Shown here in pieces: positions 26,266 through 56,561 of a stretch of 64,000 nt of DNA. The notes below the pieces were generated by a model. That model worked only from the letters and a program-made list of their open reading frames with translations, was not told the origin of the DNA and did not search any database. The position numbers and the translations under genes are program-made. Source of the stretch: Patescibacteria group bacterium (lineage in GTDB: Bacteria; Patescibacteriota; Kazan-3B-28); contig JAQUNP010000001.1 of assembly GCA_028717565.1 (NCBI GenBank), positions 229,996 through 293,995 of the forward strand, given 5' to 3'. How positions within the stretch are numbered: position 1 is the first letter of the stretch; each line of letters opens with the position of its first letter.

Positions 26266-26327
26266 GTGCAGTGGGATTTGAACCCTTGGTCAATTCTGCT
26301 AAATAGCAGAATGGCTGCTTAACTGCC
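26266..26327 (-). pseudogene. decayed tRNA-like fragment (T-arm-like GGGTTCAAATCCC, abnormal anticodon-like hairpin, no D arm)
   Basis: Minus strand GGCAGTTAAGCAGCCATTCTGCTATTTAGCAGAATTGACCAAGGGTTCAAATCCCACTGCAC. Only a 3-bp T stem and a 5/7 acceptor pairing. The anticodon-like hairpin has a 6-nt (or 8-nt) loop. Confidence 0.4.
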
Positions 26328-26331
26328 AGGG

Positions 26332-26403
26332 TGGGCGCAGAAGGATTCGAACCTTCGGCCAATCGCTTAAGAGGCGACTGCTCTACCGCTGAGCTATGCG
26401 CCC
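26332..26403 (-). tRNA. tRNA-Lys (anticodon CUU), 3' CCA not encoded (ACCC)
   Basis: GGGCGCATAGCTCAGCGGTAGAGCA; anticodon arm GTCGC-CTCTTAA-GCGAT; T arm GAAGGTTCGAATCCTTC; TGCGCCC-A. Flanks extend the acceptor helix by 8 bp. Confidence 0.92.
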
Positions 26404-26410
26404 ACCCTGA

Positions 26411-26445
26411 CTGTTAAGCCTTCCCACCGCTTTAGCTATGTGCCC
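26411..26445 (-). pseudogene. degenerate duplicate of the 5' half of tRNA-Lys(CUU)
   Basis: Minus strand GGGCACATAGCTAAAGCGGTGGGAAGGCTTAACAG aligns to GGGCGCATAGCTCAGCGGTAGAGCAGTCGCCTCTTAAGCG of the intact gene just downstream. Confidence 0.5.
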
Positions 26446-49849: not shown

Positions 49850-52066
49850 CTAGTAATCTTCACCTTCTCGAAATTCCTCGCCGGTTTCTTCATCAACATC
49901 TGTGTTGCCAAAAATTCGAGGGAGATCTTCTTTTTTAATTAATACATCGCGAGGTTTAGCACCCTCTGAAGGACCGATGATGCCCTTATCTTCCAAAATA
50001 TCAAGCAGACGGGCAGCCCGGGCATAGCCGATTCTAAATCTTCTTTGTAAATACGACGCCGAGGCCTTGCCCGTTTTGGCCACCAACTCGACTGCATCCT
50101 GAAAGAGATCATCGCCCTCGTCGTTATCGCTGCCACCAAACATATTACCGCCACTGCCCTTGCTATCTCGCAAGACCTCTTCAACATATTGAGGCCCGCT
50201 CATTTCGCGCAGGGCATTGCTGACGGCCTTGACTTCTTTGTCATCAATAAAGCAGGCCTGGATACGTTTTGGCTTCGAAGAGTCAGACGGCATGAAGAGC
50301 ATGTCTCCATTGCCAAGCAGTTTTTCAGCCCCGATAGTATCTAATACCGTTCTGGAATCAGTACCAGAGGTAACCGCAAAAGCAATGCGAGACGGGAAGT
50401 TGGCCTTGATCAGACCCGTGATAACATCAACCGAAGGCCTTTGAGTGGCGAGCACCAAGTGGATACCAACAGCTCGAGACATCTGAGCCAATCGACAAAT
50501 ATAGGCCTCTACTTCCCGAGCCGAGACTGCCATCAGGTCTGCTAACTCATCTATAACCAACACAATGTAGGGCATTTTACCGTCTCGGTTTTGACGATTG
50601 TAGCTGGCGATATCACGCACTTTAGCATCGGACATCGCTCGATAACGTCTGTCCATTTCCACCACTAACCACTTTAAGGAGTTAATGGTTTTGTGTGGGT
50701 CAACGATGACTGGCGAGAGCAAGTGGGGGACATCGTTATAGGTCGTGAACTCTACTCGTTTGGGATCAACTAGAATAATCCTCAAGTCCTCTGGAGAATT
50801 TTGGTACAAAAGACCAATCAACAAACTATTTAGAAAAACGCTTTTACCAGCACCAGTCGCACCAGCAATTAGCAGATGTGGCATTTTAATCAAATCGGTC
50901 GCCATCGGAGTACCAGCCACATCGCGACCTAAGGGGATTCTCAAAGGGGACTTGATGCTATCAAACTCACCGGATTCCATCACTTCCCGCAAACGCACTA
51001 AAGCAGTTTTTTTGTTAGGCACCTCGATACCTACCAGTGAACGGCCGGGGATAGGTGCCTCAATACGGATGGGGTGAGCCGCTAAAGCCAGAGCTAAGTC
51101 ATTAGTAAGGTTGGCGATCCGCGACAGCTTGATACCCGAGGCGGGCTTTAAAGTATATTGCGTGACAGTTGGGCCAACGTTGACCTCATGCATTTCCACA
51201 GCAATATTAAAGTCCTCCAGAGTTTCTTGGATAGTAGCGATATTGGCATTAATGTTTCCGCTATCAACTTTGGTGACCGCATCACTAAGCAGATCAATGG
51301 ACGGAGGAGACCAGTCGCCAGTTGGAGTGAACTGGGGGACAAACTCGGTTTCTTGTGCGGTCTTTTCTGACTTCGACTTGAACATGGCCTTGTAGGCCTT
51401 TTTTGCGCCATCATCTTCTCCCGCCTCTTCACCGATTTCAAAGTCGCTATTGATTTTAACATCAGGCATCTTTGGTATCTCTGGCAAAGATATCTTTGTC
51501 CGCAAATAGAGATCTTTTAGGGGCTGGCCGAAGGCAAACAAAAGCGAAATGGCAAAGCCCACCACAATAATTAAGAACGAAGCCCAGAAATCCATCAGAT
51601 TGAGTAGAAAACGACTAACCCAGAATCCCAAAAAGCCACCACCGCCACCTTCTTGAGCCAAAGCCAATCCGTTTTCTGGACCGATAAAGACATGCATTAG
51701 GGCGGACAGGGTGGTAATAAAAAGTAGCAAGCCAATCACATTGGCGGTTTTGAAATGGTAGCGCACGGGGTAGAAAAGGGCGACGCCAGAACCGGCGAAG
51801 AGGATAGGCATAATAAAGCTGGTCCAGCCCAAACCTAGACGTAGCGCTGTAAAGAAAATCTTACCCACGCTGCCAGCCCCCCCAAGAATGGCCAACAGAG
51901 TAAAAAGACCTAGCCCTACCAGTAGAATAGCGATTATCTCGCGGACTACCGCCGGATCTAGCTCTAGGTCAAAATTTAAATTGTCCACCCAATTGGTGGC
52001 CTTATTTTGGTAGGAGCGATAATTATATCTCCTAGTACCTTTTTTCTTTTTTCTTTTCCTAGCCAT
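49850..52066 (-). CDS. ftsK: DNA translocase FtsK
   Basis: 738 aa; N-terminal TM helices; motor domain GATGAGKS Walker A, VIDELADL; gamma winged-helix C-terminus. Confidence 0.95.
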   Translation of the reverse strand: MARKRKKKKGTRRYNYRSYQNKATNWVDNLNFDLELDPAVVREIIAILLVGLGLFTLLAILGGAGSVGKIFFTALRLGLGWTSFIMPILFAGSGVALFYPVRYHFKTANVIGLLLFITTLSALMHVFIGPENGLALAQEGGGGGFLGFWVSRFLLNLMDFWASFLIIVVGFAISLLFAFGQPLKDLYLRTKISLPEIPKMPDVKINSDFEIGEEAGEDDGAKKAYKAMFKSKSEKTAQETEFVPQFTPTGDWSPPSIDLLSDAVTKVDSGNINANIATIQETLEDFNIAVEMHEVNVGPTVTQYTLKPASGIKLSRIANLTNDLALALAAHPIRIEAPIPGRSLVGIEVPNKKTALVRLREVMESGEFDSIKSPLRIPLGRDVAGTPMATDLIKMPHLLIAGATGAGKSVFLNSLLIGLLYQNSPEDLRIILVDPKRVEFTTYNDVPHLLSPVIVDPHKTINSLKWLVVEMDRRYRAMSDAKVRDIASYNRQNRDGKMPYIVLVIDELADLMAVSAREVEAYICRLAQMSRAVGIHLVLATQRPSVDVITGLIKANFPSRIAFAVTSGTDSRTVLDTIGAEKLLGNGDMLFMPSDSSKPKRIQACFIDDKEVKAVSNALREMSGPQYVEEVLRDSKGSGGNMFGGSDNDEGDDLFQDAVELVAKTGKASASYLQRRFRIGYARAARLLDILEDKGIIGPSEGAKPRDVLIKKEDLPRIFGNTDVDEETGEEFREGEDY

Positions 52067-52210
52067 ACCCTGTAGAAGATTTTAGAAGGTAATATTTACA
52101 ATTTGATATACACTTTTTTACTAGCGTTGCCCCAGAGAGAAGGATAATTGCATCGTAGGTTATCCCAATATTACCAGATAGAATTGTTCTAAAATTCTCT
52201 ACAGGGCATA
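52064..52210. mobile_element. MITE-like element: 139 bp with 20-bp terminal inverted repeats (18/20) flanked by a CATA direct repeat
   Basis: CCCTGTAGAAGATTTTAGAA (52068-52087) vs TTCTAAAATTCTCTACAGGG (52187-52206). CATA at 52064-52067 and 52207-52210. The left CATA contains the ftsK start codon. Confidence 0.4.
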
Positions 52211-52225
52211 GTTTTTGACTATCTG

Positions 52226-52254
52226 ATTATAGCATATTTTATAGGTGTTGTCAG
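52226..52254 (-). promoter_or_regulatory. ftsK promoter
   Basis: CTGACA(52254-52249)-17 nt-TATAAT(52231-52226), upstream of the inverted-repeat element. Confidence 0.55.
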
Positions 52255-52274
52255 CCCCCTATGTTGCAAAAAAC

Positions 52275-52326
52275 GCGCTCTGGGAGCAAGAAAACTCTTG
52301 ACAGGACCCTTAATTTGGAGAATAAT
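52275..52326 (+). promoter_or_regulatory. promoter of cassette D with shared upstream module
   Basis: GCGCTCTGGGAGCAAGAAAACTC-TTGACA(52298-52303)-17 nt-AATAAT(52321-52326). 27/29 identical to 1234-1206 on the minus strand. Partial repeat GCGTTCTGGGGGAAACTCTAGAACGC in the leader (52342-52367). Confidence 0.7.
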
Positions 52327-52392
52327 TGGGCCATCATTCTAGCGTTCTGGGGGAAACTCTAGAACGCACATCAAAATTAAGTGAGGTATGCA

Positions 52393-53361
52393 ATGGAAAC
52401 CATTTTCCATGTGTTAGGCGTTGCGTTGTTTGTCATCTATGCGGTCCTGGTAATCTGGGACCCTCGACCTGCCGGATGGGGCTGGATCAGCGGGTGGGTA
52501 CGCCTCCGCTGGCTATCCCTGCTCGGCTTCACTGCCGGTCTGGCAATCATGTGCTGGACCATTCAGCTGGATCAGCCCGTCGTCGATTCTACGGCCTGGA
52601 CCACGACCTTCAATGGAGGTACGTGGTGGAGCTGGTTGTTAATCGCCGGCAGTGTAGCCGTGATGTCGTTTGGCGCTTTCCGGCCAGATGAGATCACGGG
52701 AACTAATCGCTTTACAGGCGATGATGTCCGGCTGGCCTTCGGTGGAGCACTGTTAGCAGTGATCTTCTGGGTTCCCCAAGGGAACCTGCAGATCAACTGC
52801 GGCGACACTATCCTGTGTCCTGTCCGCGGTACAGTTGCCGCCGGCCAGACCACAGAGGCTTATGTGGCTGCTGCCAAGAACGGTGCCCACCCTGATGTGG
52901 ACACGGAGAGGATCTTTACTCGCCCCGCCTTAGGGGACGAGGAAAGCGATTCTGCGCGTCTGATCTGGACCGGCTGGGGCCGGTGGATAGTGGTCGGCGT
53001 CGACTCACAGCCGGCTGCGAATGCCGCCCGGCTGCCACACTGGGCGAGTAAGCGCTTTAATGCGGCGAACAACCCGTCGCTCCTCAGCGCTGCCTCAGGT
53101 GGCTGGCTCAGACGCATGGTGCAACTGGATATCAATCCCGCACCCGAAAGCATCGGCATTGATGTTCCGCCCGCCACACCATCCGCACCGGCAGCCGACC
53201 CTGTGATGGAAAAGCTGGATGGCATCTCTGACCAGATCACCGCGCAGGAAGAGCACCTCAAAAACCTGGACGAGAAAGTCCAGGATATGGATGAACGGTT
53301 AGCACATGCCGAAGAGGGTGTGCGACAGTTCATTGAGATCGGGAAAAACGGCTGTGGTTAG
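52393..53361 (+). CDS. hypothetical Trp-rich 4-TM membrane protein with C-terminal coiled coil (322 aa), high-GC cassette D
   Basis: ATG 52393 preceded by GTGAGG. TM helices in the first ~150 aa. C-terminal heptad-like EKLDGISDQITAQEEHLKNLDEKVQDMDERLAHAEE. Confidence 0.55.
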   Translation: METIFHVLGVALFVIYAVLVIWDPRPAGWGWISGWVRLRWLSLLGFTAGLAIMCWTIQLDQPVVDSTAWTTTFNGGTWWSWLLIAGSVAVMSFGAFRPDEITGTNRFTGDDVRLAFGGALLAVIFWVPQGNLQINCGDTILCPVRGTVAAGQTTEAYVAAAKNGAHPDVDTERIFTRPALGDEESDSARLIWTGWGRWIVVGVDSQPAANAARLPHWASKRFNAANNPSLLSAASGGWLRRMVQLDINPAPESIGIDVPPATPSAPAADPVMEKLDGISDQITAQEEHLKNLDEKVQDMDERLAHAEEGVRQFIEIGKNGCG

Positions 53362-53395
53362 CCTAAGCTGTGGGCACGCACCGATCTACTCTAAC

Positions 53396-53430
53396 GGGAG
53401 GCGAGACCCTATCGCCCCCCGTTTATTTTT
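53396..53430 (+). terminator. terminator of cassette D
   Basis: GGGAGGCGA-gaccctA-TCGCCCCCC followed by GTTTATTTTT. Confidence 0.65.
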
Positions 53431-53443
53431 ATCTGTTTCTATA

Positions 53444-53472
53444 TTGACAAGGAATAATTTTTATGATATAAT
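53444..53472 (+). promoter_or_regulatory. perfect consensus promoter of the 451-aa ORF
   Basis: TTGACA(53444-53449)-17 nt-TATAAT(53467-53472); GGGGA SD 8 nt before the ATG. Confidence 0.7.
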
Positions 53473-53493
53473 GAAAATACTGGGGATAATGCA

Positions 53494-54849
53494 ATGTCTA
53501 TGATAGAAAAGGCTCCTGATAATTTGGACAACACTGAACCGGTTCGCGGATGGCGTGCCGATAGCGAACTGCGGCACGACGAACTCTATTCACAACCAGA
53601 ATCGGATGTTGAGTCAGACAGCCGCCCCGGTTCAACAAAAAGCATAGAGGCCAAACTGGGCGGTCGTTTTAGTACGCAAGGGATTGTGGAGTGGGGAGTG
53701 ACAGAAACTATCTGGGCCAAGAACCCACGCATCCGAGAGCAGGCCTATGAACTGGCTAAAGCTCGTTATCCGATGCCGGGTGAACAAACAGGTGAGAATG
53801 TGCCGAGATGGCTTCAAATAAAATATGAGAACGCGTGGCGCAGTACTGGCAAATGGCTGATTAGAACAGCAGTTTTTGGCGCCAAGATTGAAACCGATGA
53901 TTCCGCTGAGCAGAATATCCGGGAGGATATGCGCCGGCGAGAGCTTTTGGCTTATAATTTTCTTATACCCACAGAAACTAAACGCAACTGGGGAAAAGAA
54001 GAGAGATTGATCCGGCGCGGCGAGAAACAGGTCAGGACTGCGGCGGATAAATTGAGTGCACGTGCCAAAGTGGAACGCGACCAGCTGGTAAAAAAAGTGG
54101 CCGCAGGTGAGGCTGATGTCTCAATTTTACGAGAATATGACAAGAAAAAGGCACTGGAACAACAGGCTCTGGTTGAAAAAATGGAACGAAAACGTCAGCG
54201 ACTGCTTGAACGCCGAGAGGGGTTGGCGCAAGTGCAAACTGAAATTATCCAGGGTATTTTGAACCGACCTGAGTATAGTAGTGCCGAATCGATGATGCAA
54301 ACACTCCTTCAACAAAACGGTCACTGGCTAGAACAGTTACAAGACCCTCATTCGGCGCGTCGACGCTTCAGAGCCATTCGGCAAAGGTTTAGTTTTACTG
54401 AAACCGATTGGGTCCACCCAGAAGATCAACAAGCAATAGCGCAAGTTGGTGGTTTATCCGCAGAAGCACAACGACGAAGAGTAGAGATAATGGGTGCTAC
54501 TAGATTTGTCGAAAGCCGCCGACAGCAACTCGAACAATTGCAAGGCATCTGGAAAGAGCTTGACCAAAAACAGCCCGAAGATTTTTTGGAGCCGTTTAGG
54601 GAAGCCCTCCTGGAAGGTGTAAGTAGACAGGACTTTGTAGACATCTGGCATGATCGGTTGGTGCAAGAGATAGATGATACAACGCAAAAGAGTTTCACCA
54701 CATCTCTGCAAGAACGTTTGGGAAAGGCAAAAGCCTCTGTGGAAAAACAGCGCCAAGAACTCTTGCGCCTATATGACGCTACGGATCGTTTTGTCGAACC
54801 AGAATCTTCTGCAACGGGCGACAAGAAGAAAAAGAATAAAGCTGCCTAA
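53494..54849 (+). CDS. hypothetical charged, coiled-coil-rich protein (451 aa)
   Basis: ORF track; long E/R/K/Q helical stretches; no TM or catalytic motif recognised. Its stop overlaps the rnj stop. Confidence 0.6.
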   Translation: MSMIEKAPDNLDNTEPVRGWRADSELRHDELYSQPESDVESDSRPGSTKSIEAKLGGRFSTQGIVEWGVTETIWAKNPRIREQAYELAKARYPMPGEQTGENVPRWLQIKYENAWRSTGKWLIRTAVFGAKIETDDSAEQNIREDMRRRELLAYNFLIPTETKRNWGKEERLIRRGEKQVRTAADKLSARAKVERDQLVKKVAAGEADVSILREYDKKKALEQQALVEKMERKRQRLLERREGLAQVQTEIIQGILNRPEYSSAESMMQTLLQQNGHWLEQLQDPHSARRRFRAIRQRFSFTETDWVHPEDQQAIAQVGGLSAEAQRRRVEIMGATRFVESRRQQLEQLQGIWKELDQKQPEDFLEPFREALLEGVSRQDFVDIWHDRLVQEIDDTTQKSFTTSLQERLGKAKASVEKQRQELLRLYDATDRFVEPESSATGDKKKKNKAA

Positions 54850-56561
54850 ACTTCGATTACTACTGGCAAGACAAGTGGTCGGCGACCGGTCTCTTGGAAT
54901 AGGAACTCACTAAGTTGCTCACGCAGCTTGGATTTGATATTGGTCCAATCGTCAGGGATTTCTTTGACATGCTTTTTAAATAGATTTTGAACTCGTTGTT
55001 TTGCCATATCCATTAAAGCACCTTTTTCTTTAACATAAACAAAGCCGCGCGACATGATATCAGGAGTGCCGACCAGCCGCCCGCGCTTATCCACCACGGT
55101 AATCACTACAAAAGTGCCTTCTTTGGCCATGGTTTGACGATCTCTTAAAACCACTTCTTTCACGTCACCCACGCCTAAGCCATCAATCAGAACCGAGCCA
55201 GCATGAATGCGGTCTTTAAGCTTCTTGGCTTTGCCGTTTTTAAACTCTACCACATCACCATCTTCAATCACAAAGATGTTTTTAGGCGGGATGCCCACAC
55301 TTTCTGCAAGTTCCTTGTGGGCTACTAGCATGTGGTATTCGCCGTGCACGGGAATAAAGTAGCGAGGTCGAACTAGCTCCAACATTTGTTTCATTTCTTC
55401 TTGGTAGGCATGGCCGGTAACGTGGATTTGCATTTTTTTATCGAAGATAACATGCGCCCCTGCACGATAAAGATTATTGATTACGGCCGAAATAGATCGC
55501 TCGTTGCCTGGGATAGGGGAGGAGGACACTACCACGGTATCACCCTCTTTGATCTGCACCTGCCTGTGCTCCTTGAAGGCCATCCGCTGCAGAGCCGAGC
55601 CCTCTTGACCTTGGCTGCCAGTGCTCAAAATAACTAATTGGTGGTCTTTGATACGTTTAATTTGATGCAATGGCACCAAGAGACCCTTGGGAACTTTGAG
55701 ATAGCCCAGTTTGACTGCAACATCAAAATATTTCACCATACTCCGACCCGCAATTGCGACTTTGCGTTTATACTTGGCCGCAGCAGATAAGACATGCTGC
55801 ATCCGATCGATTCTCGAAGCAAATGAGGAAACAATGAGCCGACCTTTGGTGGATGCAAAAATGTCCATAAAGGTATCGGCAATGACCTGCTCAGAGACCG
55901 TTCGCCCAGGAGTATGCGCATTGGTGCTCTCACTCATAAGCAGAAGAGGTTTTTTGTCACCAATTTGTTTAAGTTTGTCATAGTCAGCACCAATCCCGTC
56001 TGGGGGAGTAGGATCGAATTTAAAGTCCCCGGTATGGAGGATGATCCCCTCGGGGGTTTCAACGATTAGACCAAAAGCGTCTGGGATACTGTGAGTTACC
56101 CTAAAGAAAGAAACGGTGAAGGCCTTGCCAACACGGATTTTGTCCTGGGGCTTGTATTTAATGACCTTGACCTGATTTTTGAGCGCAAATTCCTCTAAGT
56201 TGATTTCAATCAGAGCGGCAGCTAACACGGGAGCATAGACCGGCACATTCAGCTTCGGTGCGATATAGGGCACAGCCCCAATATGGTCTTCGTGTCCGTG
56301 AGTAACCACAATCGCCCGAACTCGCGACTTGTTTTGTTCTAAGTAAGTTGTGTCAGGAATCACGTAGTCGATACCTAGCATTGATTCATCTGGGAACATA
56401 AACCCACAGTCGATGATCAAAATATCGTTTTGATATTCAACAGCAACTAAATTTTTGCCCATTTGACCGACTCCGCCTAAAGGAATGATTTTTAATCCAT
56501 CCCCACCAGGAGATTTCATCTGGGGAATTTGGGAACTAGTTTGAGATTTCTTTTTTGACAT
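54846..56561 (-). CDS. rnj: ribonuclease J
   Basis: 571 aa; beta-CASP MBL with HGHEDHIGA motif. Confidence 0.95.
   Translation of the reverse strand: MSKKKSQTSSQIPQMKSPGGDGLKIIPLGGVGQMGKNLVAVEYQNDILIIDCGFMFPDESMLGIDYVIPDTTYLEQNKSRVRAIVVTHGHEDHIGAVPYIAPKLNVPVYAPVLAAALIEINLEEFALKNQVKVIKYKPQDKIRVGKAFTVSFFRVTHSIPDAFGLIVETPEGIILHTGDFKFDPTPPDGIGADYDKLKQIGDKKPLLLMSESTNAHTPGRTVSEQVIADTFMDIFASTKGRLIVSSFASRIDRMQHVLSAAAKYKRKVAIAGRSMVKYFDVAVKLGYLKVPKGLLVPLHQIKRIKDHQLVILSTGSQGQEGSALQRMAFKEHRQVQIKEGDTVVVSSSPIPGNERSISAVINNLYRAGAHVIFDKKMQIHVTGHAYQEEMKQMLELVRPRYFIPVHGEYHMLVAHKELAESVGIPPKNIFVIEDGDVVEFKNGKAKKLKDRIHAGSVLIDGLGVGDVKEVVLRDRQTMAKEGTFVVITVVDKRGRLVGTPDIMSRGFVYVKEKGALMDMAKQRVQNLFKKHVKEIPDDWTNIKSKLREQLSEFLFQETGRRPLVLPVVIEV

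What the first reader, a model, noticed from the sequence alone, without database searches (positions are those of the whole stretch)
52064..52210. 139-bp MITE-like inverted-repeat element inserted exactly at the ftsK start codon, creating a uORF and an RBS-occluding 20-bp helix
CCCTGTAGAAGATTTTAGAA (52068-52087) and TTCTAAAATTCTCTACAGGG (52187-52206) are inverted repeats matching at 18/20 positions, 99 nt apart. The 4-mer CATA flanks both ends directly (52064-52067 and 52207-52210), like a target-site duplication. On the ftsK (minus) strand the duplicated TATG contains the start codon. The distal copy now opens a 6-codon uORF (ATG CCC TGT AGA GAA TTT TAG). The proximal copy is the real ftsK ATG. 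Removing the element and one CATA would leave TATAAT(52231-52226)-cagatagtcaaaaact-ATG. That is the short-leader style typical of native genes here. With the element present, the ~153-nt leader can fold into a 9+9-bp helix whose 3' arm ends 1 nt before the ATG. That helix would mask ribosome access to an essential division gene. No transposase is present in the window.
Basis: seen in the sequence. Interest (0 to 1): 0.6.

Follow-up and report, generated by a model that had tools for sequence, protein, structure and literature searches.

The report
Old MITE on the ftsK start codon
A 139-bp mobile inverted-repeat element landed exactly on the start codon of the cell-division gene ftsK in an ancestor of this tiny-genome (Patescibacteria, Kazan group) bacterium; relatives carry sister copies on the start codons of other genes, and the ftsK copy has since been kept almost unchanged at its ends, so it now buries the ftsK start in a strong RNA hairpin behind a six-codon mini-gene.

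Summary
The arms are 52068-52087 and 52187-52206 (18/20), CATA flanks both ends, and ftsK starts in the proximal copy.

The mobile-element reading is supported.
- Four relatives have the predicted empty site, TATAAT-N15-17-ATG.
- Full copies with their own 4-bp duplications sit in four other gene contexts in a related metagenomic population, every one on a start codon.
- The window has no transposase domain.
- About 77 kb sampled from this organism holds only this copy.

The insertion is old. Two relatives with 86-87% FtsK identity carry it at the same place. Four-fold synonymous sites between them and the window are saturated (33-37% identity). Even so, all 40 arm bases are identical between the window and the nearest relative, while the interior has drifted to 58%. 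That indicates selection on the arms.

The full-length leader buries the ftsK start. Opening it costs 20.7 kcal/mol, against a median of 8.2 for genes in the window.

My preferred mechanism is inferred, not shown. Ribosomes load on the native 5'-proximal AUG, translate the six-codon uORF into the 5' arm, and so unzip the helix. RNase III processing is the main rival.

This is a new MITE family with an unusual start-codon habit. Interest is moderate.

The parts
52068..52206 (-). 139-bp non-coding inverted-repeat element (MITE), oriented here with its CCCTGTAGAGAATTTTAGAA end towards the promoter
   Evidence: verify the repeat. An nhmmer profile of the family scores it at E = 8e-26. It is absent from the orthologous site in L011, L012, L013 and L031.
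52207..52210 (-). Distal copy of the 4-bp target-site duplication (TATG on the gene strand); its ATG starts the uORF
   Evidence: The same TATG/TATG flanks occur in L002, L003, L020 and L019b, CATA/CATA in L019a, and TGGA/TGGA in L021.
52064..52067 (-). Proximal copy of the duplication; contains the true ftsK ATG (52066-52064)
   Evidence: The N-terminus MARKRK is conserved in all homologues.
52189..52209 (-). uORF ATG CCC TGT AGA GAA TTT TAG (MPCREF*); its stop lies inside the 5' arm
   Evidence: Read directly from the sequence. It is identical in L002, L003 and L020. L019b encodes MPYREF*. DRH29 has lost it (ATA).
52187..52206 (-). 5' arm (gene sense) of the terminal inverted repeat
   Evidence: 20/20 identical in the window, L002 and L003 although synonymous sites are saturated.
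52068..52087 (-). 3' arm (gene sense); ends 1 nt before the ftsK ATG
   Evidence: 20/20 identical to L002. In L003 the outer 6 nt are replaced.
52088..52096 (-). 3' strand of the inner helix (AAUAUUACC on the gene strand)
   Evidence: Repeat I6. It appears in the MFE and centroid folds. Five of its 9 pairs show compensatory changes across copies.
52167..52175 (-). 5' strand of the inner helix (GGUAAUAUU on the gene strand)
52226..52254 (-). Native ftsK promoter: CTGACA, 17-nt spacer, TG-n-TATAAT (-10 hexamer at 52231-52226)
   Evidence: 11 of 12 positions, TG extension. The TG-n-TATAAT box is conserved in relatives with empty sites.
49850..52066 (-). ftsK (738 aa)

Best explanation
**Origin (well supported).** The 139 bp are a non-autonomous transposon of MITE type, from a family found in Kazan-group Patescibacteria. 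It has 20-nt terminal inverted repeats, an inner covarying helix and a 4-bp target duplication. It inserted into the TATG that holds the ftsK start codon, so the duplication regenerated the ATG. This happened in an ancestor shared at least with L002 and L003. In these lineages the ends have since been held constant by selection while the interior drifted.

**Consequence (computed).** The transcript from the unchanged native promoter now begins with the old short leader and the old AUG. That AUG now opens a 6-codon uORF ending in the 5' arm. About 120 nt further on, the true ftsK AUG sits at the foot of a helix of about 24 bp that pairs it with the uORF start region.

**Mechanism I commit to (inferred, about 35%).** Ribosomes still load on the 5'-proximal AUG as they did before the insertion. 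While translating the uORF they unwind the whole 5' arm. This frees the A/U-rich 3' arm and the ftsK AUG for initiation, so FtsK synthesis is coupled to, and throttled by, uORF translation.
For: **Empty sites.** L011, L012, L013-16 and L031 read TATAAT-N15-17-ATG.

**Family copies at other genes.** Each has its own 4-bp duplication and each sits on a start codon.
- L020: an oxidoreductase, flanked TATG/TATG.
- L021: PGM/PMM, flanked TGGA/TGGA. The start is now GTG, built from the last G of the element.
- L019b: a Big_6 protein, TATG/TATG.
- L019a: the opposite orientation, CATA/CATA.
- The orthologous sites are empty in the window organism: oxidoreductase and PGM. The Big_6 site is empty in DRH29.

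**Age and constraint.**
- Four-fold third-position identity in ftsK is 0.33 between the window and L002, and 0.37 with L003.
- The arms are 40/40 identical between the window and L002.
- The interiors are 58-61% identical, against a shuffled null of 51.5%.
- The four ftsK copies share two indels that the other copies lack.

**Structure.**
- The consensus fold has the outer helix plus an inner helix with compensatory changes at 5 of 9 pairs. In total 90% of cells pair, against 40-51% in slid controls.
- L019b carries a compensatory G:C to A:T change in the arms.

**Occlusion.**
- Opening -12..+12 around the ftsK AUG costs 20.7 kcal/mol. That is second of 53 window genes (median 8.2, sd 4.0).
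- It falls to 5.3 kcal/mol without the 5' arm.

**Support for coupling.**
- The three copies with opening cost of about 20 or more (window, L002, L019b) all keep the upstream ATG and its in-frame stop.
- Two decayed copies have lost the ATG: DRH29 ftsK (opening cost 9.1) and the L025 relic.
- Genes in the window commonly have TATAAT-N6-10-ATG or A-rich leaders without a Shine-Dalgarno sequence. A 5'-proximal AUG and an unstructured A/U-rich leader are therefore plausible initiation signals here.
Against: - No expression data exist. The transcription start, uORF translation and coupling are all inferred.
- The ftsK AUG lies about 120 nt from the uORF stop, so coupling would have to act through helix melting, not ordinary reinitiation.
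- L003 keeps the uORF although its outer helix is broken (opening cost 4.5).
- DRH29 keeps the element with neither uORF nor stable fold (z = +0.9). The arrangement is therefore not required in every lineage.
- Perfect 40/40 conservation is stronger than pairing alone demands. It may instead reflect a protein that reads the arm sequence.
- The NJ tree of FtsK places DRH29 (element present) next to L011 (empty). Either precise losses or independent hits at ftsK must then be assumed.
- The arms of L019a, L020 and L021 were found by searching with the arm sequence itself, so their 5'-arm identity is partly ascertainment.
Confidence: 0.8

Rival explanations
1. Same MITE origin, but the hairpin is an RNase III substrate. 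The near-perfect helix of 20 bp or more is cut. The downstream product then starts inside the 3' arm and regenerates a short-leader ftsK mRNA like the pre-insertion one. The arms are conserved because they form the cleavage site.
For: - The helix is long and nearly perfect: 19 of 20 positions pair on the sense RNA (one of them a G:U wobble), plus 4 pairs from the duplication.
- This would work in either orientation, as seen with L019a.
- There is precedent: RNase III cuts Correia-element transcripts at the inverted repeats (PMC10969869 section 4.1; PMC2649163 abstract).
- It explains why the element is tolerated on leaderless-type genes.
Against: - No RNase III gene lies in the window, and the rest of the genome was not examined.
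- It does not explain why the upstream ATG is kept where the helix is intact and lost where the helix has decayed.
- L003 and L020 carry a broken outer helix yet persist.
Confidence: 0.25
2. The element supplies its own outward-facing promoter. ftsK would then be transcribed from inside the element on an RNA that lacks the 5' arm, so the start codon is never occluded.
For: - TATAAT-like boxes align in the same column 17-20 nt before the 3' arm in several copies: perfect in L002, L020 and L019a, CATAAT in L003.
- A mirrored box, GATTATAT, lies next to the 5' arm.
- L020 scores outward promoter-like sites on both strands.
- Without the 5' arm the opening cost drops to 5.3 kcal/mol.
- Correia elements create promoters at their ends (PMC2649163).
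Against: - The window's own copy has only TATATC at that position, and the scan finds no promoter-like site inside it.
- L002 also yields no forward site.
- The interiors are AT-rich, so such hexamers arise easily by chance.
- The native upstream promoter is conserved and strong (11 of 12 positions).
Confidence: 0.1
3. The element is a tolerated passenger with no host function. FtsK is made at a sufficient level through helix breathing. The arm identity reflects recent independent insertions, or conversion from an active family kept constant by its transposase, rather than host selection.
For: - The family's arms are near-identical in distant genomes.
- Decayed copies exist, which suggests neutral decay after insertion: DRH29 ftsK, the L025 relic and the distal arm of L019a.
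- The window's interior is no closer to L002's (0.58) than to L020's (0.61).
Against: - Independent hits on the same 4 bp in three or four lineages, in the same orientation and sharing two indels, are unlikely.
- No second copy and no transposase were found in about 77 kb of this organism.
- The flanks and interior are diverged, while exactly the arms are invariant.
Confidence: 0.15
4. The sequence is not mobile at all. It is a dedicated ftsK leader structure that is ancestral in the clade, and relatives without it have lost it.
For: It is conserved at the same position in L002, L003 and DRH29. One copy was found in the sampled part of this genome.
Against: - The same element, with its own 4-bp duplications, sits at four unrelated genes.
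- The flanking 4-mer varies (TGGA in L021), as expected of a staggered-cut duplication.
- The empty sites keep exactly the N15-17 promoter-to-ATG spacing.
- There is no Rfam match.
Confidence: 0.03

Closest known systems
Correia repeat-enclosed elements (CREE/NEMIS) of Neisseria
   Same: Both are non-coding elements of about 100-155 bp with terminal inverted repeats, inserted next to genes and co-transcribed. Both form a long RNA hairpin. Correia elements can carry outward promoters and are cut or bound by RNase III (PMC2649163; PMC10969869).
   Different: There is no sequence similarity. Correia elements duplicate TA, whereas this family duplicates 4 bp, mostly TATG. The host phylum differs. 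This family sits exactly on start codons and leaves a uORF. Its interior is far more variable than its ends.
Rickettsia palindromic elements (RPE)
   Same: Both are small palindromic mobile elements in reduced genomes whose insertions spare gene function because of where and how they land (PMC10969869 section 4.2).
   Different: RPEs insert in frame inside ORFs and are translated as part of the protein. This element stays outside the ORF, closes the incoming reading frame after 6 codons, and the duplication restores the start codon.
uORF-plus-hairpin translational control of bacterial leaders (for example erm-type leader peptides), from general knowledge
   Same: In both, a short leader ORF's ribosome remodels a helix that sequesters the downstream initiation region.
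   Different: No stalling signal or alternative pairing is evident here. The uORF and helix were delivered ready-made by a transposon. The downstream start has no Shine-Dalgarno sequence.
IS families with 4-bp duplications and CC ends (IS1380; also IS701 and the IS5 group), recalled from the ISfinder tables
   Same: A 4-bp target duplication and termini that begin with CC.
   Different: No autonomous partner was found. No transposase lies in the window, and the match rests on memory only, so parentage is untested.

Membership tests
Bacterial MITE (non-autonomous DDE-transposon derivative) | Small size (tens to a few hundred bp) with no coding capacity for a transposase | tested here: met
   The window copy is 139 bp and the other full copies are 139-149 bp. 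No transposase domain occurs in the window.
Bacterial MITE (non-autonomous DDE-transposon derivative) | Terminal inverted repeats | tested here: met
   The arms match at 18/20. They extend to 23 nt at 87%. Zero are expected by chance.
Bacterial MITE (non-autonomous DDE-transposon derivative) | Direct target-site duplication whose sequence depends on the site | tested here: met
   The flanks are TATG/TATG at four sites, counting the three ftsK copies as one and the CATA/CATA pair as the reverse orientation. They are TGGA/TGGA at L021.
Bacterial MITE (non-autonomous DDE-transposon derivative) | Multiple copies at non-homologous sites | tested here: met
   Five independent sites were found across related genomes. 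In the window's own organism only one copy was found in about 77 kb, so copy number in this genome is unresolved.
Bacterial MITE (non-autonomous DDE-transposon derivative) | Empty orthologous sites in relatives | tested here: met
   ftsK is empty in L011, L012, L013-16 and L031. The oxidoreductase and PGM sites are empty in the window organism. The Big_6 site is empty in DRH29.
Bacterial MITE (non-autonomous DDE-transposon derivative) | A related autonomous IS with the same ends | not tested
   The arm-pattern scans of genome and metagenome collections returned only short elements or chance hits. No pair of arms far enough apart to enclose a transposase gene was seen.
Correia element (CREE) | TA target duplication and the Correia 26-bp inverted repeat, in Neisseria | tested here: not met
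   The duplication is 4 bp, the arm sequence is unrelated, and the host is a Patescibacterium.
IS200/IS605-derived palindrome-associated elements and REP/BIME | No terminal inverted repeats and no target duplication (subterminal hairpins); or GC-rich palindromes of 20-40 nt | tested here: not met
   This element has clear terminal repeats, a variable 4-bp duplication, and is AT-rich at about 140 bp.
Curated cis-regulatory RNA (Rfam) | Match to a covariance model at the gathering score | tested here: not met
   The whole-window gathering search gave only tRNAs. The permissive search of 51950-52420 gave only hits at E above 5.

The most novel reading that the evidence does not exclude
The family may be a start-codon-seeking mobile leader. 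Its transposase would prefer the TATG at gene starts, and the 4-bp duplication would rebuild the start codon. The arms would close the old reading frame after a few codons. The hairpin would then place a leaderless or short-leader gene under uORF- and structure-dependent translation. On this reading a transposon distributes a ready-made translational control module in minimal genomes, and the host has fixed it on ftsK.
Probability: 0.25. Interest if true: 0.8.

Novelty: new member of a known kind. Interest (0 to 1): 0.5.

Why it matters
- Patescibacteria have genomes of about 0.6 Mb and few recognised mobile elements. Full-text searches for MITEs in this group returned no paper on the subject.
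- Here a MITE family repeatedly occupies the one position where a 4-bp duplication leaves the gene intact. It turns leaderless-type genes into genes with a uORF and a start-occluding hairpin.
- One copy, on an important division gene, shows sequence-level purifying selection over a period long enough to saturate synonymous sites. This looks like exaptation of a transposon into a 5' leader.
- It also gives a tractable handle on how translation starts in organisms that largely lack Shine-Dalgarno signals.
- A practical point: such elements mislead gene callers about start codons. Short contigs in four assemblies end near these copies, so the repeats may also fragment assemblies.

Tried and rejected
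- **Rfam.** Gathering and permissive searches gave nothing relevant.
- **Genome-collection scan with the arm pattern.** It returned 7 single-arm hits in unrelated taxa, mostly inside coding sequence, which is chance level. The window's genome is not in that collection.
- **Viral-contig scan.** One chance hit inside coding sequence.
- **More copies in the window.** blastn, an nhmmer profile with --max, and paired-arm searches allowing 6 mismatches per arm all found none.
- **More copies elsewhere.** A further 12.7 kb of the same organism and 21.5 kb of the L011 organism held none.
- **Longer contigs of the MITE-rich population.** The exact LCP protein occurs only on contigs of 3.5 kb or less in four assemblies.
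- **G:U versus A:C asymmetry, to decide between RNA-level and DNA-level pairing.** The signals were mixed. The inner helix favours the sense RNA, while the outer helix of DRH29 favours the antisense strand. I draw no conclusion.
- **Using interior similarity to prove orthology of the window and L002 copies.** The values barely exceed the shuffled null. Only the shared indels support orthology.
- **An internal promoter in the window copy.** Not supported by the scan.
- **IS200/IS605, REP and attC-like readings.** Rejected on the terminal repeats and the variable duplication.
Full report
**1. The observation**

The sequence is as described.
- The arms at 52068-52087 and 52187-52206 are complementary at 18 of 20 positions and lie 99 nt apart. 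With the flanks, the tool extends them to 23 nt at 87%.
- In shuffles of the window a 20-mer with up to three mismatches is expected 0.00 times, and two were found.
- CATA abuts both ends.
- The minus-strand ORF 49850..52066 encodes a 738-aa protein with the four FtsK domains.
- Its ATG is the proximal CAT. The N-terminus MAR(K/R)RK is shared by every homologue inspected.
- The distal ATG opens ATG CCC TGT AGA GAA TTT TAG.
- A strong sigma-70-type promoter, CTGACA-17-TG-n-TATAAT (11 of 12), lies at 52254..52226 on the minus strand, 16 nt upstream of the distal ATG.
- The leader folds at -47.2 kcal/mol, z = -4.35.
- An independent Logan assembly of the same organism is identical here.

**2. The organism**

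The exact FtsK protein belongs to a Patescibacteria MAG (359-kb contig). Its homologues are from the 'candidate division Kazan' group.

Genes in the window commonly have a TATAAT box 6-10 nt before the ATG, or A-rich leaders without a Shine-Dalgarno sequence.

**3. Is it an insertion?**

Yes.

| Locus | ftsK start context |
|---|---|
| L011 | TATAAT-taatgggttaaaatt-ATGGCT |
| L012 | TATAAT-tactgcgtacatcat-ATGGCC |
| L013-16 (complete Kazan genome CP011216) | TATAAT-tgctctgtacacctatt-ATGGCA |
| L031 | TATAAT-tagctggttaaagcc-ATGGCG |

**4. Is it a repeated family?**

Yes, but this was shown in related genomes, not in this one.

A metagenome scan with the arm pattern returned three contigs of one sample that carry full elements in other contexts. 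A profile search then found a fourth copy on one of them.

| Copy | Gene at the insertion | Flanking 4 bp | Note |
|---|---|---|---|
| L020 | pyridine-nucleotide disulphide oxidoreductase | TATG / TATG | promoter context TATAAT-agaac, leaderless type |
| L021 | PGM/PMM | TGGA / TGGA | the ORF now starts at GTG, made of the element's last G plus TG |
| L019b | Big_6 surface protein | TATG / TATG | arms carry a compensatory G:C to A:T change |
| L019a | gene downstream of an LCP gene | CATA / CATA | opposite orientation, between a stop codon and the next ATG |

The orthologous sites are empty elsewhere. The oxidoreductase and PGM starts are empty in the window's own organism. The Big_6 start is empty in Kazan DRH29.

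All five independent sites, including ftsK, overlap a start codon. A rough census of the window counts 18 TATG/CATA sites at start codons and 52 elsewhere in intergenic DNA. Four of four TATG insertions at start codons is therefore more than 'TATG preference plus loss of intragenic hits' predicts (about 0.26^4 = 0.004). This rests on a small sample and a crude gene set.

In this organism I found no second copy in the 64-kb window or in a further 12.7-kb contig. No transposase domain occurs in the window.

**5. Age and constraint**

L002 and L003 (FtsK 87% and 86% identical) carry the element at the same place, in the same orientation, with the same flanks.

- Four-fold degenerate third positions of ftsK are 33% (window-L002) and 37% (window-L003) identical, which is saturated.
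- All 40 arm bases and both TATG copies are identical between the window and L002.
- The interiors are 58-61% identical, against a shuffled null of 51.5 ± 2.7%.
- If the arms evolved like the interior, 40/40 would have a probability of about 0.58^40, roughly 3e-10.
- The flanking leader and the first codons of ftsK are ordinarily diverged, so recent exchange of the region is unlikely.

A decayed copy also lies at the ftsK start of Kazan DRH29 (L032:9857-9999). Each arm has 4 changes, the flanks are TATA and CATG so the upstream ATG is lost, and the fold is no better than shuffles. The four ftsK copies share two indels against the other copies.

An NJ tree of FtsK places DRH29 next to L011, which is empty, on short internal branches. 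The history is therefore either one old insertion with precise losses, or more than one hit on the same 4 bp. From general knowledge, hairpins flanked by short direct repeats are prone to precise loss. I favour a single insertion for window + L002 + L003 and leave DRH29 open.

**6. Structure**

A consensus fold of seven copies gives the outer helix (arms plus the duplicated 4-mers) and an inner helix (GGUAAUAU / AUAUUACC).
- Five of the nine inner pairs show changes on both sides.
- Overall 90% of cells pair, against 40-51% when the partner is slid by 1-3 columns.
- On the sense RNA the two arm 'mismatches' are one G:U and one A:C.

The energy needed to expose -12..+12 around the start codon:

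| Sequence | Opening cost (kcal/mol) |
|---|---|
| window ftsK | 20.7 (second of 53 window genes; median 8.2, sd 4.0) |
| window ftsK, 5' arm removed | 5.3 |
| L002 | 23.4 |
| L019b | 19.7 |
| L021 | 12.6 |
| L020 | 11.8 |
| DRH29 | 9.1 |
| L003 (outer 6 nt of the 3' arm replaced) | 4.5 |
| relatives with empty sites | 7.4-11.1 |

**7. How it most likely works**

*Shown:* the element separates the conserved promoter and the old 5'-proximal AUG from the ORF. The old AUG now opens a 6-codon frame that stops inside the 5' arm. The true AUG is sequestered in the full-length fold.

*Inferred:* ribosomes still start at the first AUG. At the uORF stop they cover the whole 5' arm, which releases the A/U-rich 3' arm and the ftsK AUG. 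FtsK synthesis would then be coupled to uORF translation.

The supporting pattern is small but consistent. The three copies with an intact helix keep the upstream ATG and its stop, while two decayed copies have lost the ATG. I give this model about 35%.

Rivals:
- **RNase III cutting of the helix, regenerating a short-leader mRNA (about 25%).** This has precedent in Correia elements (PMC10969869; PMC2649163).
- **Tolerated passenger, with arm identity owed to the transposon rather than the host (about 15%).**
- **Outward promoter inside the element (about 10% for this copy).** The window copy has no such site by the scan, although L020 does.
- **A non-mobile dedicated leader.** This is excluded by the copies at other genes.

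**8. Comparison with known systems**

The element meets the structural definition of a bacterial MITE: size, terminal repeats, site-dependent duplication, non-homologous copies, empty sites and no transposase. An autonomous partner was not found and could not be searched for further.

It is not a Correia element, an RPE, a REP/BIME, an IS200/IS605 derivative or any Rfam family. A 4-bp duplication with CC termini recalls IS1380-type elements, but that rests on memory only.

**9. Novelty and score**

The kind of element is known. The family, its host phylum and its habit of sitting exactly on start codons are not described in the literature I could search. The apparent exaptation on ftsK is of moderate interest.

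I rate it a new member of a known kind, interest 0.5. There is about a 25% chance that it is a start-codon-targeting mobile leader module, which would deserve about 0.8.

Noticed in passing
window 52381-54849 (+); compare L002/L003 2836-3001, and L011, L012, L013, L032: The space between RNase J (54846-56561, minus strand) and ftsK is a variable slot. L002 and L003 have RNase J directly upstream of ftsK on the same strand. The window has two opposite-strand ORFs (326 and 451 aa) with no Pfam match. Other relatives have one, two or three different unannotated ORFs there.
   Followed up: partly
window 52270-52305 (also L012, L013, L031, L032 upstream of ftsK): A conserved motif, GTCAAG-N8-10-GCT(C/T)CCAGAGC, lies between ftsK and the divergent upstream gene. 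GTCAAG is the reverse of a TTGACA -35 box for the divergent gene (plus-strand promoter-like site at 52298..52326). The near-palindrome GCTCCCAGAGC followed by a T-run also scores as a terminator-like hairpin on the minus strand. It could be a shared operator or a bidirectional terminator.
   Followed up: no
window 26317-26339 and 26397-26419: A 23-nt inverted repeat (91% complementary) brackets tRNA-Lys(CTT) at 26329-26404. It extends the acceptor stem by about 12 bp into the leader and trailer, inside a cluster of six tRNA genes.
   Followed up: no
L025:11427-11519 (Kazan DRH29): A 93-nt relic of the same element family lies just upstream of the ortholog of the gene next to copy L019a. Its 3' arm is of the forward type, whereas L019a is in the reverse orientation. 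The same start codon was therefore probably hit twice, or the element inverted.
   Followed up: partly
L003:2994-2999 and L020:1091-1096: Two copies at different genes in different organisms end in the same variant hexamer, (T/A)TCACG, instead of ACAGGG. The variant unpairs the region just before the start codon and lowers the opening cost to 4.5 and 11.8 kcal/mol. This could be parallel relief of occlusion, a subfamily, or conversion between copies.
   Followed up: no
L033:9990-10160 (organism of L011): The PGM/PMM gene there is called 55 aa too long. Upstream of the likely true start lies an unrelated GC-rich hairpin repeat (GTCATTCCCGCGGAGGCGGGAATCC), possibly a different small repeat family.
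   Followed up: no
L027-L030 (four assemblies of the L019 region): Contigs that carry the exact LCP protein are all 3.5 kb or shorter in four independent assemblies, and they end near element copies. This fits repeats breaking the assembly.
   Followed up: no
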